Of a DNA stretch of 32,125 nt, positions 490 to 29,916 are shown piece by piece. Below the pieces are notes generated by a model. The model had not been told where the DNA came from and did not search any database. It saw only the letters and a list, made by a program, of their open reading frames with translations. Position 1 is the first letter of the stretch; each line of letters starts with the position of its first letter. Both the position numbers and the translations under genes were made by a program. Source of the stretch: a virus (lineage: Duplodnaviria > Heunggongvirae > Uroviricota > Caudoviricetes); the IMG/VR virus record IMGVR_UViG_2703718850_000013; one strand, given 5' to 3'.

Positions 490-502
490 AGCATTTTTTA
501 AC

Positions 503-631
503 TCCATTAATGGAATGAGTTAATCCACTAATAGAGATTTTATTCCATTAATGGAGTGTTATATTCCAACATATATGGCTTGAAACCCGCATTCTACCGT
601 TGAAATTGTGAATTTTACTTCATTAATGGAA
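503..631. promoter_or_regulatory. cluster of three 12-bp palindromic sites (TCCATTAATGGA at 503-514 and 544-555; variant TCATTAATGGA at 620-630), operator-like
   Basis: Exact repeated dyad-symmetric sequence read directly from the intergenic region after the first ORF; a TCCACTAAT half-site also occurs at about 524-532. Confidence 0.4.
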
Positions 632-1776: not shown

Positions 1777-2520
1777 TCATTTTTTCTTTAGAGTTATGAA
1801 GTTATCAATTGGATAGTTATCATCATATATATCTTTTATGAAAGATGAAATCTTATTGTGAAGTGAAATTGCTTTTGACTGTATAACGAAAAGCTCACTA
1901 CTAGTTTGATCCCTCACACATTCATCGGCCTGTATAAGTGCAGGAACCTCAGAACTTGCAATATAGAAATCGATACTCAGTCCGTTATATTCATCAATAT
2001 TTAATTTAAGTTCAGCAATAATGTTTTTTGTGTATTCGCTTAAAGCATAATTAGTTCTATCAATAGATTTTAAGGAATTAATAACGGAGTAAGAAGTGAA
2101 GAATAAATCGGAAACAAGAGCATCTGTTTCCTTCATAAACTCATCATGTGAATCTTGGGGTATGGTCTCGTTTTTTAAATGATTGCGATATTTTTTGGAG
2201 AATGTCACTAATTGATGTTTTAAAATTAAGGTTGAAGTACGTACTTTATTAAGATCTTGATAAATTGCTTTCTCAATAACACCATATACTACATCATAAT
2301 GTTTTTGCGACAACCATTCAGGTGCTTTTAGGTATGCTTGGTAGGCTACCCATAGTGTACCTAATGTACCTACAGCACTACATAATGTTCCAATTAAAGT
2401 TACCCACTCCCATCCTTTCGAACCAGAAAATAATATTTTTACACCAACTAATATAGCAATTAGCAGCAGTAATAGTACGGTACTTAGTAGTATTAAATTA
2501 TATTTTTTAATATTAAGCAT
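1777..2520 (-). CDS. 2TM membrane protein, paralog of 3498..4199 (start re-chosen at internal ATG)
   Basis: N-terminus MLNIKKYN...VKILFSGSKGWEW parallels MNIKTIN...VKVLFAGSRGFEW of the 3498..4199 product; two hydrophobic helices then an about 180-aa helical soluble region. The track start at 2568 adds 16 residues absent from the paralog. Confidence 0.6.
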   Translation of the reverse strand: MLNIKKYNLILLSTVLLLLLIAILVGVKILFSGSKGWEWVTLIGTLCSAVGTLGTLWVAYQAYLKAPEWLSQKHYDVVYGVIEKAIYQDLNKVRTSTLILKHQLVTFSKKYRNHLKNETIPQDSHDEFMKETDALVSDLFFTSYSVINSLKSIDRTNYALSEYTKNIIAELKLNIDEYNGLSIDFYIASSEVPALIQADECVRDQTSSELFVIQSKAISLHNKISSFIKDIYDDNYPIDNFITLKKK

Positions 2521-2584
2521 GTTAATCTCATTTCTTAAATAAAAGACATAGATGTATATATGTAGCATTGATGGATATATATTC

Positions 2585-2602
2585 CACTAATCATGATTAG
2601 TG
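2585..2602. promoter_or_regulatory. perfect 18-bp palindrome CACTAATCATGATTAGTG between two minus-strand genes
   Basis: Read directly; lies in the 118-nt gap between the 2639..3460 stop and the 2520 start, so it could be an operator or an attenuator hairpin. Confidence 0.3.
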
Positions 2603-2638
2603 CCTCTCTGATTAATAATGTGATACATGTCCATGTAA

Positions 2639-3460
2639 TTAATAACGGAAACTCCATGTTTTTCTACTCAAAGCTAACTTCTTATGGACAAGTAGAAATA
2701 CAAATATCTCATGGAGATATGGAACCAGAGGTTCTCTTATCCCTTTACTGTGCTCAATGTTGTCAATATCATCTTTAAATTTAGAAATTAGATAATAATA
2801 AGGCTGCAACATATCAATGATTTCAAACACAATATAAGGTGAAACGTTTATTACTTTCCAGGAAAGTATATACTCATCAATTTGGCTTAAAATCGCACCA
2901 TCAAGACCTCTATTCCAGGTGTAACCGTATGCTTTGTATTTGTCGGCCCATAAATTTAATTCTCTTTCTAGTTTTTGTTTTCTAGAATCAGTAATGTGTT
3001 TACGGAAGCAAGAATTAATTATTTCGTTCCACTGTGCTAACGGATCTTTGACTTCTTTTTTGCCTTTTACAATTTTATCAAGATTATAATATCTTGAAGC
3101 ATCAGCGAATTCAGAAAGCATTTCTAATATGAGGTTTTGCTGCCAGTTTAATTCCCACTCCAAATTGGGTAAATGGCTAGCACCATAGCTTGAACAGTTT
3201 TTATGAAGCTCCGCAATATTATGGCTGAATTTTTTAAGTGTACGGAAGTCTGGCTTCTCAAGATTATTTTCGATCATATGATTGAGTATGAAGATAATCT
3301 TAAAAAACCTTTCTATGCCAATTGATAATTGAAAGAAGCTGCTATAGAAGCTACCTTTATCATGTGCTCTACATTTCCGCACAGCAGTAAGCCCACCACC
3401 TATTGAGGTACTGGACAAATAAGACTCTACCATGAATTGATTAAATGACTCCCCAAGCAT
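2639..3460 (-). CDS. hypothetical cytoplasmic protein (273 aa), possible Abi/HEPN-like (weak)
   Basis: ORF with AAGGA Shine-Dalgarno 6 nt upstream of ATG at 3460; no TM segment; an R-x4-H motif (RKCRAH) near the N-terminus is the only HEPN-like hint. Confidence 0.55.
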   Translation of the reverse strand: MLGESFNQFMVESYLSSTSIGGGLTAVRKCRAHDKGSFYSSFFQLSIGIERFFKIIFILNHMIENNLEKPDFRTLKKFSHNIAELHKNCSSYGASHLPNLEWELNWQQNLILEMLSEFADASRYYNLDKIVKGKKEVKDPLAQWNEIINSCFRKHITDSRKQKLERELNLWADKYKAYGYTWNRGLDGAILSQIDEYILSWKVINVSPYIVFEIIDMLQPYYYLISKFKDDIDNIEHSKGIREPLVPYLHEIFVFLLVHKKLALSRKTWSFRY

Positions 3461-3497
3461 AAGCTTTCCTTTTTATTTACATCAATTAACTATAAAT

Positions 3498-4199
3498 TTA
3501 GCTGAACGAATAATCAGTATCAATATTTGTTTCACATAGCTCGTACTGAAATATGGCAGCTAGCTCTCTTTTAACACTTTCAAGATTTTCTGTAGCTGCA
3601 ATTACGTCCTCATGCTTGGGGCAATTAATATGTTTGCATATGGTCAATAGATATATATATTGATTGTCTAAATATGACTGCCTTAACTCTAATATATTTT
3701 TAAATAAATTTTCAAGCCGTTCGCTTAACTTAATATCAAACCTGGCTAGCATTGACCTTGTCGTATATAGCTTAGCAAGTTCAGATAAATCACTTGTGGC
3801 CTTTTTATTAATTTCAGCAGCAACTTTAGATTTTATTTCATCTGTCAGTTCTTTATTATCCTGAACATATTTCCTGATGGAAGCACGAACTATACCATCA
3901 TTATATAAACGTGAATTTATTTCCCATAACTGCATCTCAAATTTCATAGCCAACTGATGTGAGGTAGAAAGGGATTTTAATTTTTTATTCTGAACGAACC
4001 AATTATTTGCTACAAAAGCAGCACAAAGAGCTGTAGACGCAATCACGATATTGCATAACGCACTTGTTAAATCAGCTGCGTTCCCCCATTCAAACCCCCT
4101 GCTACCAGCGAATAGAACCTTAACGAGTACTAAGACTGCTAAAAACAGAAGTACTGCAACAATGCCGACAAGAGTAGAGTTTATAGTTTTTATATTCAT
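3498..4199 (-). CDS. 2TM membrane protein, paralog of 1777..2520
   Basis: Two N-terminal hydrophobic helices then a helical soluble domain; its ATG overlaps the upstream gene's TGA (ATGA at 4196-4199), implying coupling. Confidence 0.6.
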   Translation of the reverse strand: MNIKTINSTLVGIVAVLLFLAVLVLVKVLFAGSRGFEWGNAADLTSALCNIVIASTALCAAFVANNWFVQNKKLKSLSTSHQLAMKFEMQLWEINSRLYNDGIVRASIRKYVQDNKELTDEIKSKVAAEINKKATSDLSELAKLYTTRSMLARFDIKLSERLENLFKNILELRQSYLDNQYIYLLTICKHINCPKHEDVIAATENLESVKRELAAIFQYELCETNIDTDYSFS

Positions 4200-4747
4200 A
4201 ATTTATCAGCTATGTTAACTTCACTATAGAGCAAGCCTTTCAATTTCATCAAAGCTTCCCAAATTTCAGTTGGCTTACCGCTACAATTTCTAAGTAATAT
4301 TTCATCGTTTTCTTGTTTACTCAATGATGAATCATAAAACCGTGCTCCCAATTCTTCAAAATCATTTATAGCATTAGTAACCGTCCAAATCGCATCGTGA
4401 ATTTGTGGTGTCATGTATAATGTATAATCGAGAAGGAAGTCACTTGCTTTACTTTTAATTAAATCCTGTTTATAAAGCATAATTTGATCTAAAAGATCAC
4501 CATCATCATAAAAATTAAAATTTTCTGGAAGATTCAAAGAATTAATAAACTGAATGAAAGGTTTAATAGTTTGCTTTTTTTCTTTTAATTCATCTTCGAG
4601 TATTTTGAATAAAAGTTGTTTTTTTAGTTTTTCGTTCTCATATTTTTTAGTGATTAATTGGCTTGCCAATGTTACACCCGCAGCTATTAATGCACCGCCT
4701 AAAGTACCACCGACTGCAATGAGTTGTGTAATGGTTTCAGCTTCCAT
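4196..4747 (-). CDS. single-pass membrane protein (first gene of the putative four-gene operon; start re-chosen)
   Basis: One N-terminal TM helix (ITQLIAVGGTLGGALIAAGVTLA) then an about 150-aa soluble domain. The track start at 4771 is TTG; the ATG at 4745-4747 (MEAETITQ) is used here. No strong SD, so the start is uncertain. Confidence 0.5.
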   Translation of the reverse strand: MEAETITQLIAVGGTLGGALIAAGVTLASQLITKKYENEKLKKQLLFKILEDELKEKKQTIKPFIQFINSLNLPENFNFYDDGDLLDQIMLYKQDLIKSKASDFLLDYTLYMTPQIHDAIWTVTNAINDFEELGARFYDSSLSKQENDEILLRNCSGKPTEIWEALMKLKGLLYSEVNIADKL

Positions 4748-4818
4748 TTTTTTAGAAATCCAATATATCAAAGTGAAAAATGAACTTTACCATAATAACC
4801 ATTCTGGCGTAAACTATT

Positions 4819-4880
4819 AGCGACACGCCCCACTCATAAAGGGTAGGTTTGTTTAGTTGGTGTGTGTGGGACGTGTCGCT
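4819..4880. repeat. inverted repeat: 9-bp arms AGCGACACG (4819-4827) and CGTGTCGCT (4872-4880) with a 44-nt spacer
   Basis: Read directly; relatively GC-rich arms in an AT-rich intergenic region next to the octamer array. Confidence 0.5.
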
Positions 4881-4896
4881 GAACAGTTGGACTATG

Positions 4897-5024
4897 TTCT
4901 TATGTTCTTATGTTCTTATGTTCTTATGTTCTTATGTTCTTATGTTCTTATGTTCTTATGTTCTTATGTTCTTATGTTCTTATGTTCTTATGTTCTTATG
5001 TTCTTATGTTCTTATGTTCTTATG
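4897..5024. repeat. perfect tandem array, 16 x TTCTTATG (CATAAGAA on the minus strand)
   Basis: 128 nt of uninterrupted 8-nt periodicity read directly; intergenic between the HNH gene stop (5053) and the start of the 4747 operon. Confidence 0.95.
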
Positions 5025-5052
5025 TCTATATTTCTCAACCTTTAGTTGAAAA

Positions 5053-5856
5053 TCATTTAGGATAACTAACACAAGTATGACCAGAAATTACCATCATAAA
5101 TTGATTATTCTTTAAACCTACAAAGGGAAATGAAGCATAATCAATATTAGCCGTTGTCATATTAAAATGAAGAGATTGATCATATTGAGTCATTTCAGTT
5201 GCATGAATAGGAAATGTTCCTTGCTCCTTCAGTGTAACCAAAAAAGATATTGGGAAAAAATGTAAGCAAGAACATATACTATGATGTCCATTATTGTAGA
5301 ATGTAACTGACTGAGCAGTAATTTGTTTTCTGAATGGATAAAACCAATAGTAAATATTATGAGTTGCCCCAATGTCTGGATTCCTGCCTAATACAAAATT
5401 TCTCAATGGAGTATAAAAAGGACTATCAACAATAGGCTTCATACAATCTTTTACTGAAGTTGCAGCCAGAAGGTGTCCAATCATTGCTCTTAGAAATTTA
5501 TCCGCATCAAATTTTAATGAAATATAATTTTTGTAAAAGAACTTACCACTAAAATAATCATTTAACTTTTCGATGAATTCAGTTGTAACACGGCCTATTT
5601 CTGCATCCATTGATCCTAAAATATTCGAGTTACAATTGTGACAAATGGTACGAAAAGTTGTCCCGCTTTTTGCTTTAATTGGTGGTACTCGAGTATTAGA
5701 GAAATACTCAGAAATCGTTTTTTGTAACATAGGTGAAGGTTTAGATGCACATTGCGGGGGAACATGGTCTTTTTTTAATTTGCCAAAATTACCACATATT
5801 ACACAATATCCATTAGCTATTTTTACATGGTCAATTCTTTCAGAGACAAATTTCAT
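5053..5856 (-). CDS. HNH-endonuclease-domain protein with about 200-aa C-terminal extension of unknown function
   Basis: N-terminal CVICG-x7-DHVPP ... TICHNCN matches the HNH zinc-finger/His-Me pattern (CxxCG...DH..P...CxxCN). Confidence 0.6.
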   Translation of the reverse strand: MKFVSERIDHVKIANGYCVICGNFGKLKKDHVPPQCASKPSPMLQKTISEYFSNTRVPPIKAKSGTTFRTICHNCNSNILGSMDAEIGRVTTEFIEKLNDYFSGKFFYKNYISLKFDADKFLRAMIGHLLAATSVKDCMKPIVDSPFYTPLRNFVLGRNPDIGATHNIYYWFYPFRKQITAQSVTFYNNGHHSICSCLHFFPISFLVTLKEQGTFPIHATEMTQYDQSLHFNMTTANIDYASFPFVGLKNNQFMMVISGHTCVSYPK

Positions 5857-6179
5857 TCTGCAATCTCAAAAGTTAACATCACCAAAATATAGAGCATTCA
5901 AACACAATGTTCAATATGATTTTACTCTAACCAGTGTGCTATTTTTTATGCAAACTTATACATGGACGAATACTCAAACTGCGATAATAAACTGAAAATA
6001 TCGATATAAGAATTGATTTTATGAGTAATCATCATTATAGCCTATACCATGTAGCATTAACACTTTACCACCAAATAGAACATACATATACTATTGATTA
6101 TCGACCTAGGGTAAGTTTATCAATTATGGTACGATAGAATCTAAATAATCTATAGTAGCAAGAGGCTTAGGGGGAGATA

Positions 6180-6854
6180 ATGGAGTGGAAGAAAGAGCTT
6201 AGAGCAAAGTTTGAAAGAGACGAACTTAGAAGATTAATTTCTAATGTAAACTGGATTATATTCAAACCTAAAATAAAAAAGCAATTAGAAATACTATCAA
6301 CCCAATTATCAGGAGAGCATATAAGATTTAATATAATTGATATGCAAGATGAACCAGATGGTTATGGTTTTGATTGCCTGACATTTCAGATCGCTGATCG
6401 TATGACTGGAAATATGCGGCAGGAAAAAACTACCGAAAGCATAAAGTTTAATCATCATTGGCAAAAAGGAGCCGCACTTTCAATTACATATAGTGCGACG
6501 GGGGCTGTGCATATAATTCTTTTTCCGTCTACTTCAGATGATTCATTAGCAACACATGATTCCTTGATTGTCCATCATTCATATAACGTTAAACACATAA
6601 CACCAAAAAAAATAGAGAAAGCAGTAAAGAATTTACTTCATTATCACCGTGTTACAGGTGTTTTACACAAGGCCGCATTAAAAGATTTAATTTTAATCCG
6701 CTTACTGAAAATTAAGATGTTTTTTATTCAGTATAACGACAAAGAGAACAAGTTTAGAAGAGTTACAGCATTATATATACCTACATTAAGTCTTATAGTT
6801 TCGTTGGCTGCCGCAGTAGCATCTATTCTGGCATTAGTATCTGTTAAATCATGA
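6180..6854 (+). CDS. tail-anchored membrane protein (224 aa), unknown function
   Basis: Strong SD (GGGGGAG) before the ATG; single C-terminal hydrophobic helix (LSLIVSLAAAVASILALVSV); the only plus-strand gene in the island, convergent with the nucleotidyltransferase gene. Confidence 0.55.
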   Translation: MEWKKELRAKFERDELRRLISNVNWIIFKPKIKKQLEILSTQLSGEHIRFNIIDMQDEPDGYGFDCLTFQIADRMTGNMRQEKTTESIKFNHHWQKGAALSITYSATGAVHIILFPSTSDDSLATHDSLIVHHSYNVKHITPKKIEKAVKNLLHYHRVTGVLHKAALKDLILIRLLKIKMFFIQYNDKENKFRRVTALYIPTLSLIVSLAAAVASILALVSVKS

Positions 6855-6860
6855 TGATTA

Positions 6861-6890
6861 TAAGCCAGCAACTAACTGGCTTATAAATTA
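6861..6890 (+). terminator. putative intrinsic terminator after 6180..6854
   Basis: Stem TAAGCCAG / CTGGCTTA with 7-nt loop, followed by a T/A-rich tail, 7 nt after the stop codon. Confidence 0.45.
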
Positions 6891-7099
6891 GAAATTGGAA
6901 ACTATCTCTTCTCACAAAACTGCTATCTTTAGCGATAAGGGAATGTAATCTCCTGATACTGATGGTAGAGGAGCGGGTCATACAATCTTAGCAATCTCAT
7001 TTAGCTGTACGACGGTGGAATGTTTCAACTGTACTCAATTCTTACAAGTAAAAATATCGAGAATGATTTTTTGGATTCAAGCAAAGACAATGAGCTGTA

Positions 7100-7127
7100 C
7101 CCCCTTATAATTAGTAATATAAGGGGG
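7100..7127. terminator. hairpin CCCCCTTATA-loop-TATAAGGGGG between convergent genes
   Basis: 10-bp perfect stem with 8-nt loop, 5 nt downstream of the 7133..7909 stop; possibly bidirectional. Confidence 0.45.
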
Positions 7128-7132
7128 CAAGA

Positions 7133-7909
7133 TTATTTTATGGGTAAAATTTTCTTTATTTCATTTTCGGCGGCAAAATGATTGTTTAACTGCTCATAAT
7201 ATTTTGACATCATAACTGAATTTTTTAGACGCTGAATCTTATCTTTTTTCCATTGTGCGAGATAATAGGAACCTGAAAGTTGTTCTACAGCAGAGTAAAA
7301 ATATTCTTTAAGGGTAGAGCACCAAAAATAGTTAAAGCTAACAATATCTTTTTCAAGTTGATACGACTCAAAGACATAACCTGCATTGGCATTCCAATAT
7401 TTCATTATGCGAATAAGAGGCTTAATTAAATTGTTATTATTTTTATTGCAATTAGTTAAATCAGTATTGAACGCATTGGGATCGGTATTCATCCAACGGT
7501 TCAAAAAATCCTGGTTGGAAGGGATTTGATAACCAAATAAAATATTATGAGATGCAGGGACAAGCTCGAAAGTAATATGATTAAGGTTCAATTGAATAGT
7601 AGGGTGGCTTTGCTTTATTTCAGATGTACGATAGTAATAATTTACAAAACCCCTTAGCTTGTTTAGGTAGGTCTGAGGCTGATATATTACATTTTTGAAT
7701 ACAACCATATAATCAACATCAGAAGAAGGATCATAGCTACGAGGAAGCATTGTATTACGTGAATATGAGCCAAATACAAAATGACTAACAAGTTCACCAG
7801 CAAAATAACCATTCAGTCTGTTTTTTATGGTTGCAATTGAATTCGTTATTGTAATATCTCTTTGATAAGCATTGCTTTTAATAGACTCAAGATAGGTACT
7901 GACTGTCAT
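7133..7909 (-). CDS. pol-beta-type nucleotidyltransferase, SMODS/CD-NTase-like
   Basis: FGSYSRNT...SDVDY (hG[GS]-x9-13-DxD) plus a later acidic residue (FELVP); AAGGAA SD 6 nt upstream; start lies 2 nt after the upstream gene's stop. Confidence 0.6.
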   Translation of the reverse strand: MTVSTYLESIKSNAYQRDITITNSIATIKNRLNGYFAGELVSHFVFGSYSRNTMLPRSYDPSSDVDYMVVFKNVIYQPQTYLNKLRGFVNYYYRTSEIKQSHPTIQLNLNHITFELVPASHNILFGYQIPSNQDFLNRWMNTDPNAFNTDLTNCNKNNNNLIKPLIRIMKYWNANAGYVFESYQLEKDIVSFNYFWCSTLKEYFYSAVEQLSGSYYLAQWKKDKIQRLKNSVMMSKYYEQLNNHFAAENEIKKILPIK

Positions 7910-7911
7910 GT

Positions 7912-8415
7912 TTATTCCTTGTCAATATTATACTTAGTAAAGCCTTGGTTAACATCTCTTTGAGTTTTCTCATAAGCCCACCGAGGAATATTTGGCGAAC
8001 TTGAATTAAGTTGATTGCGTCGATCAGAGTAACTCGTAAGTTTTTCAATCAAAGTTTTATCAGTAAAATCAAAATTAGAAGTCAATATTTCCCTAAATAT
8101 TCTAACTTCATTCTTTAATTTATTATATTCATTTGCTGCTGATTTATGAAGTGCAGCACGCTTACTTGGGTTAAGAGACGTATTTAATGCAGTTAGAATT
8201 GTAGCAGTTATGGAAATAGCTACAACAGCATTGGCTGTACTCTTGATTGCGGCAATACCACTCAAAGCGGTTAAGATTGCTAATGGTACACCGAACCACA
8301 GATTCAGCTTATCCCATCTATCAGAAACATTATAATGAGATTTAGAAGAGTACAGAGCGTCCTCTTCTATACGATGACACTCAGAAATGACTGTTTGGAT
8401 GAGCTTCTGATTCAT
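7912..8415 (-). CDS. 2TM membrane protein, SLATT-like effector candidate (start re-chosen)
   Basis: About 40-aa N-terminal region, two TM helices (LWFGVPLAILTALSGIAAI; AVVAISITATILTAL), helical C-terminal region; tightly coupled to the nucleotidyltransferase gene. ATG at 8413-8415 has a GGAG SD; the track start is a GTG two codons upstream. Confidence 0.55.
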   Translation of the reverse strand: MNQKLIQTVISECHRIEEDALYSSKSHYNVSDRWDKLNLWFGVPLAILTALSGIAAIKSTANAVVAISITATILTALNTSLNPSKRAALHKSAANEYNKLKNEVRIFREILTSNFDFTDKTLIEKLTSYSDRRNQLNSSSPNIPRWAYEKTQRDVNQGFTKYNIDKE

Positions 8416-8579
8416 AAACACTCCAACAAATCCGATTCCCTAACAGTATAACATGGTAGGGTTAATAAATACTATAGGTACTTCCCTCTGAATAGACACA
8501 ATCGGGAAGTTTCGCCGCGAACTATTTTTTTTGCATATTAAATATTTTAAATAACACAAACAAAACCTGGATAAACAAA

Positions 8580-11436: not shown

Positions 11437-12429
11437 ATGTTTAATTTTAATTTTAGAAAGGCAAAGGAACAGCCAAAAGAAGAACCAAAACTATATATTG
11501 GTAAGGCAAAAATACGTACTGAACCAGTACTTGGTAATTTAGGTATTGAAACCAAACGTTCCATTTCTTCCATCGGTAACGGTAACGCAGCCGCACAACT
11601 TGGTACATTTGGTGCAGTTGGTAAGAGTGGCTCGATCAATGCCGTAATTAACCGTGTATTGAACACGGCAGTACTACAAAGTCGCCAGCTTAGTATGAGT
11701 AACCCAATTCATAAGAAGTATATTGCACAGAATGCCAGTAGTGTATGTGGTGCAAATGGTATTACGTATCGTCCATGTGTTCACGTTGCTGAAGATGACA
11801 ATGTTAATAATGATATTAATAAACGTCTCGCCGATGCGTTCTACTCATGGTGTGAAGACCCCGCACGTTTTTCCCTAAATGGAAAACTTGAAATGTCCAA
11901 ATTCCAGTCACTGGTAGAGAAGACACGTTCAATTGATGGTAGTTGTTTTATTCGTATCCATCCTGGTATGAAGATTGAAGTACTAGACAGTACTGTAATT
12001 GATACGAAAGGTAATCAATGGCTAAGTAATGGTAACTATCGTTCAAATGGTATTGAGTTTGAAAAAGGCACTGGTAAACCCGTTGCTTACTTTCTAACAC
12101 AATATGACCCCGTATCGTACTCAGTTAGTACTGAAGCAGAACGTGTACCCGCAGAAGAGATCCTTCACTTATTCAGTACTGACTATCCAGAACAGCAACG
12201 CGGCATTCCCGATATATTTTGCGGTACTGGACTACTGGCAGACCTGGATAAATTCATGAGGGCGTCAATCAAGACGCGACAATTAGCAGCGGAAAGCATG
12301 GGTTTTATCACGAATGCGTCACGTGATGCATCATTTGAAGATATTGATGATGATGACGATTCTGATGTAGATGAATACCAGGTTGCACGTATGGAGGGTG
12401 GAGTACTGTTAGAACTTCGTGAGGGTTAA
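11437..12429 (+). CDS. portal protein, N-terminal segment (ends at an in-frame TAA)
   Basis: Position after TerL; weak resemblance to lambda gpB from memory; followed in the same frame by 12433..12948. Confidence 0.6.
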   Translation: MFNFNFRKAKEQPKEEPKLYIGKAKIRTEPVLGNLGIETKRSISSIGNGNAAAQLGTFGAVGKSGSINAVINRVLNTAVLQSRQLSMSNPIHKKYIAQNASSVCGANGITYRPCVHVAEDDNVNNDINKRLADAFYSWCEDPARFSLNGKLEMSKFQSLVEKTRSIDGSCFIRIHPGMKIEVLDSTVIDTKGNQWLSNGNYRSNGIEFEKGTGKPVAYFLTQYDPVSYSVSTEAERVPAEEILHLFSTDYPEQQRGIPDIFCGTGLLADLDKFMRASIKTRQLAAESMGFITNASRDASFEDIDDDDDSDVDEYQVARMEGGVLLELREG

Positions 12430-12898: not shown

Positions 12899-15014
<2,116 letters not shown>

Positions 15015-25099: not shown

Positions 25100-28000
25100 A
25101 TGGCAGTAGCAGCCGTATTAACAGCAGTAATAGCAGGTGCATCAGCCGCCGCCGCTGCCTATGCAGCCGTAGGTCTTGCTGCATCTATCGCTATTGGTGT
25201 TGGTGTAGCAGCACTATCTTACGTTGCATCCTCCCAGATGATGCGTGTTGGAGATCAGGGGGTAAACTATCCCAGTACTGGGACGGTTAACTCTCGAAGT
25301 ACTTCACCCAGTACTGGGATACCGATTGTATATGGCGGTACTAATAGAAGCCTGACCGAAGAATCATTTGTTAAGGTAGGTTCCATCGTCGTATGGCAGA
25401 ACGTCTATAAGGGACAAAGTAACCAGCTATGTACAGTACATGCTATTAGTATCGGGGAGATCGGACGTGCTCCAGGTGCACAATCTGGTGCCGTAATTAA
25501 ACAGGTATACTTTGATAACAGTCCAATCTTGCTGGATGATGCCGAAATAACCAGTGAGGGTATTGTTTCTACATCCCTTATGCGTGAGAAGTATCGTAAC
25601 TTCCTCCAACTCGAAATTCGTTTTGGAAAGCCGTCTTATGGTGGTTCTATGACACTTGCCCGGCAATATGGCGGGTCTCGCTGGACTGATGAAATGCGTG
25701 GTGATGGATTAGTACAGGTTTGTTCGGTTATCCGTAAGACTAATGGTAGTCTGACCGATGGTATTTTAGTGAATCAAAACTATGCACTTTCATTGGAGAT
25801 GAAAGGACGTCTAATTTATGACCTTACTGATAACATTCGTAAACCCTCCAGTAATCCACCAAGCCAGTTATATGACTTTATCACAAATAATGAATTTGGT
25901 TTCAACACTGATCCTAATGATATTGATATTGCATCATTTCGTAATTGTGCAATGTACTGTAAGAATAATGAACTATATTCAAATGGTGCTATTGCCTATG
26001 ATAAGTCATATAAAGAAAACCTTGAAAGCATCTTGTCTACATTCGGTGGTGTAATATATGAATCGAATGGCATTATGTATCTCACCGTAGATACTGCTGA
26101 TGTTCCACTATATCATTTTGATGAAAAAAACATTCTCGGTACTGTGAATATCACAACTGGTTCTAATACGGATTATGCGAATACATTCGATGTGACCTAT
26201 ACAAACCCAGGCGGGGATTATTCAGAAGATATTATTCGTTATCCAAGTGATACGCTTACAAATGAAACAGTGGTACGGGATGGTTTAATCATTAAAAAAG
26301 ACCTTAATCTAAAATGGATTCAGGACAAAAAACAACTGGCTAAAATGGCTAATACCGAGCTATTAAAATCTAAGTATGTTCTTAATAGTATAACTTTTAA
26401 CACATACGTTACCGATCTCACAGTCTACGATGTTTTTACACTCAGTTTCAAAGAAGCCGGATTTGTTAATAATAAGTTCCGTGTAATACAACGTACTGTA
26501 CCGATGACCGTAGATAAGACTGGTGTCGTACAGATTACCGCTATAGCCTATGCGGACGGCATATATCAGGGGAAAGACCCTGGACGATTCCCACTGGACG
26601 GGATCACAAATCTACCAAACGCGACATACGTAGAACCTCCATCAAACTTGCAGGTACAGAAACTCGGTGCAACCGTTAACGGCAATGCCGTGCTTATGAC
26701 ATGGGATTTAAGCCAGGATTCAAGCGTACGGGGTTATAAGATTAGATATAAACGCAGTGATTCGAATACATGGATCTCGATTGGTAACGTAGGACAGTAC
26801 ACCACAGAGTTTCAGATACTGAATCTAATCCACGGTGTTAAATATGATTTTGGTATTGAGGCGTATAACACTCTCGGTTATTCATCTGAGTTAGTTGCAA
26901 TTTATAATCAAACGCCACAGGTGATTTTTGCCCTACCAAAGATTACTAATCTTGATATGACTAACGATAATATGGGCTTGAACCAGACTTATTCACAAGA
27001 TTTTATATTCAGATGGGATGATCAAAGTACTTTGCCAGTAAATGGAAAACGATTCTCTGATTTTTTCAAATATTATGAAATTCGTGTGTATGACCGTTAT
27101 CGTACATATATTAAGTCGTACTTTACAACGGACTTTAACTGGACATATACCTTTGCAATGAATCAATCTGATGGACTTAACAGATATCGTGTAATTGGTA
27201 TTATTGCCCACGGTCACGGTACTGGAATTTATTCAGAAGAGGTACAGATTGAAGTAAGTAACCCACAGCACCCCCAATTACTTGGTGTACGTTTGCGTAA
27301 TGGCTATGATAATGTGTTCTTAGAATGGGATGAATCAAACGTACCAGACTATTCTGGTGTAGTGTTCCAGTGTGCTAAGGATGAGGGTTTTAGTTCAGAT
27401 GTTCACTATTTCAGTTCTTCTAACCGCTTCTCTGCTTCATTTGGGATAGAGGATGGATCGTGGTTCGGACGTCTTGCAGCATATGATGTAATGGGACAGG
27501 ATGAATTAGTATGGTCGCCAACTATTGGTTTTAATCAGAATACTAAAGTTCCGTACTCAAAGCTAAATGATGATGTTGTAGATGAATTACTGAATTCAGA
27601 TGTTGCCACAGGCATTATTGAGAAACATATTGTTGATGACCTTGGATCACACTGGCAGGTTCAGGTGACGAATAACGGCAACGTATCAGGTGTATCACTT
27701 GCTAATGACGGGAAAAACTCAGCATTTACAGTAATGGCAGACCGTTTCAGTATAATCAGTACCGACAGTGCTAAACAGACTGATAAGGTATATCCGTTTG
27801 TAGTTCAGAATGGTAAGACTTATATCAATAGTGCGGTCATTGGAGACGCGAGCATAAACACAGGGCAGATAAATGACCTTGCTGTGACGCGGGCAAAAAT
27901 TCAGATAGCAGCAATCGACTCAGCCCGCATAGCCCAGGCCTCAATCCTTAATGGTCATATAGTTAATGGGGTTATCGACTCAGCAAAAATATCCCAGCAA

Positions 28001-28716: not shown

Positions 28717-28983
28717 ATGGTAGAATTAGTAATTGCAGGGATTGCAGTTTTTCTAACTTTTGTAGCATTAATCTGGACTATCATTCGTGATAATAAGACC
28801 GATGATGCAGAAATAGAAGCACGTCTTGCCTCTGTAGAAACACGACTTGCACTTGTAGAACAATCTGTTACTACATTACGAAGTGAGCATGAAGCTATGA
28901 AGATTACTCTTAAGTCAGTTGATGAATCAATCAGACGACTTGAAGTAGATATTGCACGTATTCTTGTGATACTTGAAAAATAA
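28717..28983 (+). CDS. small membrane protein with coiled coil (88 aa); lysis-associated candidate
   Basis: N-terminal TM helix (LVIAGIAVFLTFVALIWTII) followed by a heptad-like helical region. Confidence 0.4.
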   Translation: MVELVIAGIAVFLTFVALIWTIIRDNKTDDAEIEARLASVETRLALVEQSVTTLRSEHEAMKITLKSVDESIRRLEVDIARILVILEK

Positions 28984-28985
28984 AA

Positions 28986-29010
28986 GGGGCATTAATGCCC
29001 CTTTTTATTT
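28986..29010. terminator. bidirectional intrinsic terminator GGGGCATTAATGCCCC + T-tract
   Basis: Perfect 16-bp palindrome flanked by an A-run upstream and a T-run downstream, between convergent genes; it overlaps the endolysin stop codon. Confidence 0.7.
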
Positions 29011-29451
29011 GTTAATTAAATCTTTAATCATCTGGTTAAGTCTATTCGGTGTCTGACGATACCATAAACTATCCTTTGCCTGTTTAATTGCTTCTGTGTA
29101 ATTATTGTTTAGTAATGCAATGATCATCTTTTTAAACTTCTTAGTACCACTTAAGCCTAACTGAAAAATCATGATAACCATGAAGTCTTCCCAGTCCTGT
29201 GGTAATTTCAAATTTAAGGTAGATAAATTACGTTTGGCAATGCCAATATCTTTATCCAGTAGTTTATCTGCTTCATCCTCGTTAATGCCGTTAGGGAACG
29301 TCTCAGAGGCTTTTAGAAGATGTCCATATCCAATCGTATCTTTGTTCTCACTACATTTATACACCCAGAATTTACCATTGCGATAATAACCCATATGGGC
29401 CTGGTATTCTTTCGTACCTTCATATATTTTTAATTTTTCTATTAAACACAT
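29005..29451 (-). CDS. endolysin, GH24 T4-lysozyme-like (start corrected)
   Basis: DTIGYGHLL and SLWYRQTPNRLNQMI align with T4 lysozyme TIGIGHLL and SRWYNQTPNRAKRVI; the ATG at 29449-29451 has a GAGG SD, whereas the track start at 29505 adds 18 residues with no counterpart. Confidence 0.85.
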   Translation of the reverse strand: MCLIEKLKIYEGTKEYQAHMGYYRNGKFWVYKCSENKDTIGYGHLLKASETFPNGINEDEADKLLDKDIGIAKRNLSTLNLKLPQDWEDFMVIMIFQLGLSGTKKFKKMIIALLNNNYTEAIKQAKDSLWYRQTPNRLNQMIKDLINK

Positions 29452-29487
29452 AAATACCTCATAAACTATTATTTGTGGGGTATTTAT

Positions 29488-29916
29488 ATGAAATGGACAA
29501 TGCATGATCCTGAGACATGGGATTATGAAGATATAAATGACGGGAGGTATGCAGCTTTTGTATATATGATCACTTTTGACGATGGTTCATATTATTTTGG
29601 TGTAAAGTCAATCTTCAAAAGTATTCGGGATGTAAAGAAGCTGAAGCCAACTACAAAGGAATCCAACTGGGAGAATTATTATTCTTCCTCGAAGAAGGTG
29701 CAGGCAATGGTTGATTCAGGCCTGAACTATGAAAAACAAATACTATGGTGTTTCAGAACGACGAATGAAGCTGAGCAAGTAGAAGCGGCATTGATTCTAT
29801 TCTTAGGACAGCAATCAAATAATTTAAATCTTGCCGTGATGTGCAAAGTACGGCTTGGTAAAAATCGTTCTGAAACATTCAAAGTACTGCAACAATTATT
29901 AGAGAGGTTATCATGA
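29488..29916 (+). CDS. hypothetical protein, possible stand-alone GIY-YIG nuclease domain
   Basis: FVY-x10-YFG then Arg, Glu and Asn at roughly GIY-YIG spacing; weak. Start set at ATG 29488 (track start 29473 is TTG). Confidence 0.35.
   Translation: MKWTMHDPETWDYEDINDGRYAAFVYMITFDDGSYYFGVKSIFKSIRDVKKLKPTTKESNWENYYSSSKKVQAMVDSGLNYEKQILWCFRTTNEAEQVEAALILFLGQQSNNLNLAVMCKVRLGKNRSETFKVLQQLLERLS

What the first reader, a model, noticed from the sequence alone, without database searches (positions are those of the whole stretch)
4819..4880. Inverted repeat beside the octamer array
Nine-bp arms AGCGACACG and CGTGTCGCT are separated by 44 nt, immediately next to the tandem array and upstream of the operon start. 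This could be an operator for a dimeric regulator, or an RNA stem that terminates the HNH transcript or structures the operon leader.
Basis: seen in the sequence. Interest (0 to 1): 0.4.

Follow-up and report, generated by a model that had tools for sequence, protein, structure and literature searches.

The report
Conserved hairpin in prophage promoter cassette
The inverted repeat is real: it is one member of a small, undescribed family of long stem-loops with an identical 13-base loop motif, each fused to a promoter block in front of accessory (probably anti-phage) genes of E. coli-type prophages, but which strand folds and what reads the loop remain unknown.

Summary
The repeat is confirmed and is longer than reported. 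There are 15 contiguous pairs (18 with one mismatch), a 7-bp outer stem and a 26-nt loop (z = -8.5).

The window is an E. coli lambdoid prophage. The hairpin lies in its low-GC accessory island, between an HNH-like gene and a four-gene operon of unknown membrane proteins.

About 20 distinct relatives were recovered from E. coli genomes, public assemblies and IMG/VR. All share four features:
- A long stem whose sequence has turned over completely (at least four types) while staying complementary, with many compensatory changes.
- A 13-nt loop core, AACAAACCTACCC.
- An adjacent ~35-bp block, AGT(G/T)TAC-N-TGGTAAAGT, that reads as two overlapping divergent sigma-70 promoters.
- A variable downstream gene. 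The left neighbour varies in identity and orientation.

The element is not an operator, because the arms are not conserved. It is not the HNH terminator, because it has no U-tract, a large loop, and travels with the downstream promoter.

Best reading (0.35): the hairpin is the 5' structure of a plus-strand RNA that starts at the divergent promoter. The main rival (0.30) is an intercistronic insulator or RNase III hairpin on the minus-strand RNA. There are no Rfam, phage-database or plasmid matches.

The parts
4819..4880 (.). Main stem-loop: arms 4819-4836 and 4863-4880, loop 4837-4862
   Evidence: Covariation with relatives.
4812..4888 (.). Full hairpin including the outer 7-bp stem (4812-4818 with 4881-4888, one bulged base)
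   Evidence: The outer ACTAT/ATAGT-like pairing recurs in FDN-24, L102 and type C elements.
4841..4853 (-). Loop core AACAAACCTACCC (read on the minus strand; GGGTAGGTTTGTT on the plus strand)
   Evidence: Exact in loci found through p183 homologues or the covariance model, that is without using the core itself. Also present in hits of pattern scans that fixed the core.
4784..4816 (.). Conserved promoter block. Minus strand 'P2': -35 TTTACG (4808-4813), 18-nt spacer, TGgTAAAGT (4784-4792), predicted start near 4777. Plus strand 'P-anti': -35 TTTACC (4786-4791), 18-nt spacer, -10 TAAACT (4810-4815), predicted start near 4822, inside the hairpin base.
   Evidence: Read directly from the sequence. 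Conserved in all relatives. The scan reports the P2 form in FDN-24 with TG. TGGTAAAGT occurs 3 times in the window against 0.29 expected. Promoter activity is inferred, not shown.
4196..4747 (-). p183, first gene of the downstream operon (then 3498-4199, 2639-3460, 1777-2568). N-terminal membrane helix, no family match.
5053..5856 (-). Upstream HNH-like gene ('chaperonin' in RefSeq, phrog_21495)
4893..5025 (.). TATGTTCT x16.6 array next to the hairpin. Copy number varies between near-identical prophages (16.6, 5.6, 1.6).
6053..6170 (-). Second, decayed copy of the cassette upstream of the HNH-like gene. The promoter block is intact (TGGTAAAGT at 6062-6070), the core-like motif GATAAACTTACCC lies at 6109-6121, and only a 5-bp stem remains.

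Best explanation
The repeat is the stem of a long hairpin that belongs to a portable cassette of about 110 bp. The cassette is found in the accessory (defence-type) island that lies next to the terminase genes in a family of enterobacterial lambdoid prophages.

The cassette has three parts:
- A stem of 11-30 bp whose sequence is free to change as long as the two arms stay complementary.
- A loop carrying the motif AACAAACCTACCC.
- A ~35-bp block that reads as two overlapping, back-to-back sigma-70 promoters.

P2 (minus strand in the window) drives the downstream gene or operon, here p183 and three further genes. My preferred reading is that the mirror promoter P-anti (plus strand in the window) starts transcription at the base of the hairpin. 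The hairpin would then be the 5'-terminal structure of a leftward RNA. Where a divergent gene is present, that RNA is its leader. In this window it is an orphan RNA that runs through the octamer array, antisense to the 3' end of the HNH-like gene.

In this model the stem stabilises and defines that RNA, and the loop (GGGUAGGUUUGUU on that strand) is the surface read by an unknown protein or RNA partner.

Shown: the structure, its covariation, the conserved core, its linkage to the promoter block, and the variable neighbours. Inferred: both promoter activities, the folding strand, and everything about the partner.
For: Structure. Every one of about 20 distinct elements folds into a hairpin enclosing the core. 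The 13 I folded against shuffles gave z from -3 to -9, with 0-1 of 200 shuffles as good. On six sequences found through p183 homologues, 17 pairs are 94% paired; 9 of them show double-sided changes, which 0 of 500 shuffles reached, and slid-partner controls give 30-52% paired. Four pairs are compensated between E. coli 55989 and FDN-24. One type C position is G-C, A-U or U-A in three different loci.

Linkage. The hairpin sits 1-6 nt from the AGT(G/T)TA block in every member. The homology between window-type and FDN-24-type loci starts at the hairpin base.

Plus-strand reading. Internal non-Watson-Crick positions are mostly A.C on the gene-sense strand, which is G.U on the other strand. This holds in type C, L106/L119, L108 and L111: about 7 cases (my count), against 1-3 cases the other way. 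The left block varies only at the position that corresponds to the least conserved base of a -10 hexamer (TA[A/C]ACT). The hairpin stays intact in 8 loci where the left neighbour is divergent, so no gene-sense read-through is expected there. In L111 and L083 there is no room for another promoter between the hairpin and the divergent gene.
Against: No transcript data exist, and the promoter scans are no better than chance. The outer stem (ACTAT(C) with (G)ATAGT) overlaps the proposed P-anti -10, so it would not be fully inside a P-anti transcript, yet it is complementary in several members. In about two thirds of loci there is no leftward gene, and the hairpin lies between two co-oriented genes, which suits a gene-sense RNA role. 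The window/N61 allele has a U.G on the minus strand, which is an A.C mismatch on the plus strand. The TG of TGGTAAAGT and its conserved final T fit P2 better than a P-anti -35. On the plus strand the G/U-rich loop is predicted to pair partly with itself. Complementarity in DNA palindromes can also be restored by template switching without selection on RNA. The later members were retrieved with patterns that fix the core and TGGTAAA, so conservation there is partly by construction.
Confidence: 0.35

Rival explanations
1. Gene-sense (window minus strand) RNA hairpin. It would be an intercistronic insulator, processing site or stabiliser in transcripts that read through from the upstream gene. 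It separates the upstream message from the P2-driven operon, for example as an RNase III substrate or a 3'-end protecting stem. The C-rich, G-free loop stays single-stranded.
For: About two thirds of loci have a co-oriented gene ending 50-90 nt upstream. With the outer stem the helix is 22-31 bp, which by my own knowledge is in the size range of RNase III substrates. The loop has no G on this strand in types A, B and D. The window allele keeps a U.G wobble on this strand. The whole palindrome, including the outer stem, would be transcribed.
Against: The hairpin is equally intact, and still evolving by compensation, in 8 loci where the left neighbour is divergent and no sense read-through is expected. 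In FDN-24, E. fergusonii and L037 a separate terminator-like hairpin already precedes it. A.C mismatches accumulate on this strand. A purely structural role does not explain the conserved loop.
Confidence: 0.3
2. DNA-level element. The 13-bp core is a protein-binding site upstream of P2 (about -65 to -78), and the flanking palindrome allows cruciform extrusion or otherwise modulates the overlapping promoters.
For: The core is as conserved as the -10 element. The element always sits immediately upstream of the -35 region. The palindrome reaches into the promoter block, so extrusion would occlude it.
Against: The distance from the core to the promoter block varies from 23 to 31 bp, nearly a full helical turn, which is not what a phased activator needs. 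A loop of 22-34 nt makes cruciform extrusion unfavourable (own knowledge). No regulator gene travels with the cassette, and no DNA-binding domain was found in the window proteins scanned. The promoter block occurs without the hairpin upstream of p183 in L036 and L037.
Confidence: 0.15
3. A relic of a small mobile or self-perpetuating palindrome (MITE-like or quasi-palindrome). Complementarity would be maintained by template switching or gene conversion rather than by function.
For: The architecture of inverted repeats, conserved core and promoter at the end resembles Correia elements (PMC2649163). Decayed copies exist: window 6053-6170, the second L036 copy, and E. fergusonii.
Against: There is one place per genome in 90 of 5426 E. 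coli genomes, and none in the phage or plasmid collections. Arm sequences are not conserved, so no transposase-recognised ends exist. No target-site duplication was seen. Complete turnover of the stem with an unchanged loop is not what arm-to-arm correction alone gives.
Confidence: 0.1
4. Terminator (intrinsic or Rho-dependent) of the HNH-like gene transcript.
For: It is a strong GC-rich stem 170 nt after the HNH stop codon, and no other terminator lies between. The C-rich, G-free loop resembles a Rho loading site in composition.
Against: There is no U-run after the stem and the loop is 26 nt. The scan finds no terminator in the window or in relatives. The element is linked to the downstream promoter rather than to the HNH-like gene, which is absent from most family loci.
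Confidence: 0.07
5. Operator bound by a dimeric regulator at the two 9-bp arms.
For: It is an inverted repeat close to a promoter.
Against: Arm sequences differ completely between members that share the same promoter block and loop. The centre-to-centre distance between arms varies from 44 to 54 bp. The full 15-30 bp of complementarity is kept, rather than a short half-site.
Confidence: 0.03

Closest known systems
Correia repeat-enclosed elements (CREE/NEMIS) of Neisseria (PMC2649163)
   Same: About 100-150 bp in size, with inverted repeats around a conserved core. They can supply promoters at one or both ends and often sit 5' of genes. When transcribed they fold into a hairpin that RNase III binds or cuts. 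The core holds a protein (IHF) site.
   Different: Correia arms are conserved in sequence, and the elements are dispersed in over a hundred copies with TA target duplications. Here the arms are unrelated between members, there are one or two copies per genome, all in a single prophage island, and no IHF consensus is present in the core.
Rho-independent (intrinsic) terminators
   Same: A GC-rich stem downstream of a gene.
   Different: The loop is 22-34 nt instead of 3-8, no U-tract follows, and the loop sequence is conserved.
RNase III processing hairpins of phage transcripts (lambda sib, T7 early sites) and intercistronic REP/BIME stabilisers (own knowledge)
   Same: Long double-stranded stems between cistrons of phage or operon transcripts. 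The position between two co-oriented genes in most loci also matches.
   Different: No experimental cleavage data exist here. This stem is nearly perfect, has a large sequence-specific loop, and is fused to a promoter block. It also occurs beside divergent genes.
Stem-loop regulatory RNAs made from promoters that oppose or abut a gene promoter (e.g. IS10 RNA-OUT; own knowledge)
   Same: A compact unit of promoter plus stable stem-loop, in which the loop is the recognition surface.
   Different: P-anti and P2 transcripts would not overlap, so this is not a cis-antisense pair. No target for the loop was found in the window.

Membership tests
Intrinsic terminator | Short loop (3-8 nt) closing a GC-rich stem | tested here: not met
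   The loop is 26 nt in the window and 22-34 nt in relatives.
Intrinsic terminator | Run of U immediately after the stem | tested here: not met
   No terminator-like site is found in the window or in loci L028, L029 and L052. The flanks read UAAUAGUUUACG on the minus strand and GAACAGUUGGAC on the plus strand.
Operator for a dimeric regulator | Half-site sequence conserved among homologous sites | tested here: not met
   There are at least four unrelated arm sequences with the same loop and promoter block.
Operator for a dimeric regulator | A DNA-binding regulator encoded with or near the site | tested here: not met
   None of the island proteins scanned matches a DNA-binding family in Pfam, PHROGs, PADLOC or NCBIfam. 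A regulator encoded elsewhere cannot be excluded.
Correia/MITE-like palindromic element | Inverted repeats around a conserved core, with a promoter at an end | tested here: met
   (the promoter is judged at consensus level only).
Correia/MITE-like palindromic element | Terminal repeats conserved in sequence, and many dispersed copies | tested here: not met
   One place per genome in 90 of 5426 E. coli genomes. No hits in the phage or plasmid collections. The arms are not conserved.
RNase III substrate hairpin | About 20 bp or more of near-continuous double-stranded RNA within a transcript | tested here: inconclusive
   The helix is 22-31 pairs including the outer stem. Whether it is transcribed, and whether it is cut, cannot be tested here.
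Any Rfam family | Covariance-model match at or near the gathering score | tested here: not met
   No match at gathering threshold in the window. Only chance-level microRNA/lncRNA hits with E of about 1 or higher at 4650-5100.
Type III toxin-antitoxin (ToxI-like repeats, terminator, toxin) | Tandem RNA repeats of about 34-36 nt conserved upstream of the toxin | tested here: not met
   The repeat unit is 8 nt. There are 1.6 copies in nearly all strains, and the array is absent in FDN-24.
Integron attC | Conserved outer core sites (RYYYAAC and GTTRRRY) with a variable centre, plus an integrase | tested here: not met
   The pattern here is the opposite: a conserved centre with variable arms. The 3' flank GTTTACG does not fit GTTRRRY. 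No integron integrase was found among the island proteins scanned in the window.

The most novel reading that the evidence does not exclude
The cassette encodes a new kind of phage-borne regulatory RNA. It would be a short hairpin RNA made from the mirror promoter, whose loop acts as a seed or protein handle. That RNA would coordinate or gate expression of the polymorphic membrane-protein (defence-type) cassettes in this prophage hotspot. In the same scenario, the conserved ~110-bp cassette would also serve as the homology linker through which these cassettes are exchanged.
Probability: 0.2. Interest if true: 0.7.

Novelty: new variant of a known kind. Interest (0 to 1): 0.5.

Why it matters
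Accessory and defence islands of prophages are usually studied gene by gene, and their regulatory DNA is largely unmapped. Here a compact, recurrent unit sits in front of many different cargo genes in one prophage hotspot. It combines a covarying hairpin, a conserved loop motif and a bidirectional promoter block. If the hairpin RNA or its loop partner is real, it offers a handle on how such islands are switched or insulated from phage late transcription. It would also give a search motif for finding new cargo genes, and a candidate new RNA family. If it proves to be only an insulator, it is still a useful annotation for about 2% of E. coli genomes.

Tried and rejected
- Dispersed repeat (REP, ERIC or MITE): rejected. 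There is a single place per genome.
- Exact-arm search of IMG/VR: 25 of the 26 hits were chance palindromes in unrelated, mostly GC-rich contigs.
- A hairpin-agnostic promoter pattern in GTDB genomes and in metagenomes found only chance hits plus three 55989-type copies. The protein-based metagenome scan found nothing.
- tRNA, tmRNA and Rfam: nothing.
- Loop pairing with a target in the window: the best duplex, -20.4 kcal/mol, is no better than shuffled loops, which reach -20 to -27.
- Mini-ORF in the 3' arm (AUGAGUGGGGCGUGUCGCUAA): the start codon is absent in L052, so it is not conserved. The plus-strand ORFs through the hairpin and array change with the stem, so they are not coding.
- Pair-count shuffle control: uninformative, because C-rich and G-rich arms still pair after mononucleotide shuffling. 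I used energy z-scores instead.
- Literature: no paper mentions the six RefSeq protein accessions annotated at this locus in E. coli 55989 (the four operon genes and the two genes upstream). Hits to the 13-mer are human mitochondrial primers, a coincidence.
- A promoter upstream of the hairpin (TTGAGA-16-CATAGT) exists only in the 55989-type flank and is not conserved, so it cannot be the general promoter.

Full report
**1. The observation**

The two 9-mers are at 4819-4827 and 4872-4880, as stated. The repeat extends to 18-nt arms (4819-4836 and 4863-4880) that are 89% complementary and 26 nt apart.

On the minus strand this gives 15 contiguous pairs, one of them U.G. Two more pairs follow an A.A mismatch, and there is a 7-bp outer stem. 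Energies are -34.0 kcal/mol (z = -8.46) on the minus strand and -35.9 kcal/mol (z = -5.24) on the plus strand. No shuffle folds as well on either strand.

No T-run follows on either strand, and the terminator scan finds nothing.

**2. Setting**

The window is a lambdoid prophage with a gpA-type terminase, a lambda-type portal, an HK97-type capsid and a J-like tail tip. Close relatives are in E. coli.

Positions 1777-8421 form a low-GC island (31-35% GC in 1-kb windows) upstream of the terminase, mostly antisense to the structural genes. It contains:
- a SMODS cyclase plus SLATT effector pair (7133-8421);
- an HNH-like gene (5053-5856, phrog_21495);
- a four-gene operon (4747 down to 1777) of proteins with no family match, three of which have N-terminal membrane helices.

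The hairpin lies between the HNH-like gene and this operon.

**3. Close relatives**

Ninety of 5426 complete E. coli genomes carry the region, once each. Eighty-eight match the 145-nt hairpin query at 99% identity or better. One of these (N61) is identical to the window; the rest listed differ at a single base. In E. coli 55989 that base is the C that turns the window's U.G into C-G. No feature is annotated there.

The octamer array has 16.6 copies in the window and 5.6 in N61 and the IMG/VR copy. It has 1.6 in 55989 and, judging from alignment spans, in all other full-length rows listed.

In strain FDN-24 the p183 gene is 92% identical in protein, but the upstream gene is different. Homology starts at the hairpin base. 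Four stem pairs differ on both sides and stay paired, and the loop is kept with a 7-nt insertion.

On six sequences reached through p183 homologues, RNAalifold returns the same 17 pairs. Nine show double-sided changes and 94% of cells are paired, which 0 of 500 shuffles reach. Sliding the partner by 1-3 columns gives 30-52% paired.

In E. fergusonii, where p183 stands alone, the stem is degraded (z = -1.5).

**4. A wider family**

I built a covariance model from those six sequences. It found further copies in front of other genes: a p233-like gene in L037 and a decayed copy in L036. These have an entirely different stem but the same 13-nt loop core, AACAAACCTACCC.

Pattern scans of IMG/VR that fixed only the core plus ATAGT or TGGTAAA then recovered about 15 more distinct elements. 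One more came from E. coli MG48.

In all but one chance hit (L104) and one decayed copy (L115), the core is flanked by complementary arms of at least four unrelated sequence types. The 13 elements I folded against shuffles gave z from -3 to -9.

Caveat: for these later hits, conservation of the core and of TGGTAAA is imposed by the search. The arms are not.

Every member is followed within 1-6 nt by AGT(G/T)TA(C), then by 13-16 nt, then (A/T/G)TGGTAAAGT. A gene starts 24-110 nt further on. That gene is usually a member of a polymorphic family of membrane proteins with an N-terminal FEWG..DW motif (p233/p263-like). It can also be p183, a 304-aa protein, an HNH-like protein or a p232-like protein.

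The left neighbour is a co-oriented gene in about two thirds of loci and a divergent gene in about one third.

The window holds a second, decayed copy upstream of the HNH-like gene at 6053-6170. The promoter block also occurs without a hairpin upstream of p183 in L036 and L037.

**5. What it is not**

- Not an operator. The arms are not conserved, and the spacing between arm centres varies from 44 to 54 bp.
- Not a canonical terminator. It has a large loop and no U-tract. It is tied to the downstream promoter block rather than to the HNH-like gene.
- Not a dispersed repeat.
- Not in Rfam, nor in the phage or plasmid collections.
- Not coding.

The loop has no better-than-chance target in the window.

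**6. How it may work**

The block reads as P2 toward the gene: T(T/G)TAC(G/A), then 17-18 nt, then TGgTAAAGT. The TG is kept even where the intervening base changes in L037. It also reads, on the other strand, as P-anti: TTTACC, then 17-18 nt, then TA(A/C)ACT. The P-anti start is predicted at the hairpin base. Both readings are inferences from sequence.

Arguments for the strand opposite to the genes (plus strand in the window):
- Internal mismatches are mostly A.C on the gene-sense strand, which is G.U on the other strand.
- The hairpin stays intact beside divergent genes.
- In L111 and L083 there is no room for another promoter between the hairpin and the divergent gene.

Arguments for the gene-sense strand:
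- Most loci are intercistronic.
- The loop is G-free on that strand.
- The window allele has a U.G wobble on that strand.
- The outer stem overlaps the P-anti -10, so it would not be fully transcribed from P-anti.

The distance from the core to the promoter block varies from 23 to 31 bp, which argues against a phased DNA-bound activator.

I rank the explanations as follows:

| Explanation | Confidence |
|---|---|
| 5'-terminal hairpin of a P-anti RNA | 0.35 |
| Gene-sense insulator or RNase III hairpin | 0.30 |
| DNA-level element | 0.15 |
| Palindrome relic | 0.10 |
| HNH terminator | 0.07 |
| Operator | 0.03 |

**7. Comparison and novelty**

The nearest described architecture is the Neisseria Correia element: inverted repeats, a conserved core, promoters at the ends, and an RNase III hairpin (PMC2649163). 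This element fails the Correia criteria of conserved ends and dispersed copies.

I file it as a new variant of a known kind, namely a promoter-associated structured palindromic element. It deserves transcript mapping before any stronger claim.

Noticed in passing
window 4893-5025; L009; L028; NZ_AP028880: The TATGTTCT array is hypervariable between near-identical prophages: 16.6, 5.6 and 1.6 copies. In the 1.6-copy form it lies inside the 16-nt spacer of a sigma-70-like site (TTGAGA-16-CATAGT) whose predicted start is at the hairpin base, so expansion would destroy that site. On the plus strand the array also reads as a repetitive ORF (MFLCSYVL)n at 4910-5065. Collapse during short-read assembly cannot be excluded for some records.
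   Followed up: partly
window 1777-4747 (-) and relatives L029, L030, L036, L037, L052, L103, L105-L118: There is a polymorphic family of membrane proteins with a conserved N-terminal region (FEWG..DW motif) and variable C-termini, present as several paralogues per locus together with the conserved p183. None matches Pfam or PADLOC. Neighbours include OLD-family nucleases, DarT-Macro, SMODS/SLATT and HNH nucleases. This is probably an undescribed defence or exclusion system in a hotspot next to the terminase.
   Followed up: partly
window 7133-8421 (-): A SMODS cyclase (PADLOC Cyclase PDLC00769, E = 3.5e-113) and a SLATT 2TM effector (PDLC00712, E = 2.2e-70) form a minimal CBASS-like pair carried by the prophage.
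   Followed up: no
window 498-631: Three copies of the palindromic motif TCCATTAATGGA(G/A)T lie just after ORF 1-489. They include a perfect 16-nt inverted repeat at 501-516 and 542-557. They look like an operator or iteron.
   Followed up: no
window 12123-12184, 13550-13596, 25262-25321: Palindromes built on CAGTACTG / CCAGTACTGG recur inside the portal, capsid and tail-tip genes.
   Followed up: no
window 28977-29010: AAAAGGGGCATTAATGCCCCTTTTT looks like a bidirectional intrinsic terminator between the tail-tip gene and the converging ORF 29005-29505.
   Followed up: no
L005 1980-2055; L011 10990-11186: Two chance hits of the arm pattern in unrelated phage contigs lie next to, or enclose, clusters of DnaA-box-like sequences (TTATCCACA), which suggests replication origins.
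   Followed up: no
L028 (E. coli 55989): In 55989 the prophage is a remnant. The terminase gene is truncated beside an IS100, and an IS3 element plus an H-NS-family gene flank the island. The hairpin cassette and operon are nevertheless intact in 88 genomes.
   Followed up: no
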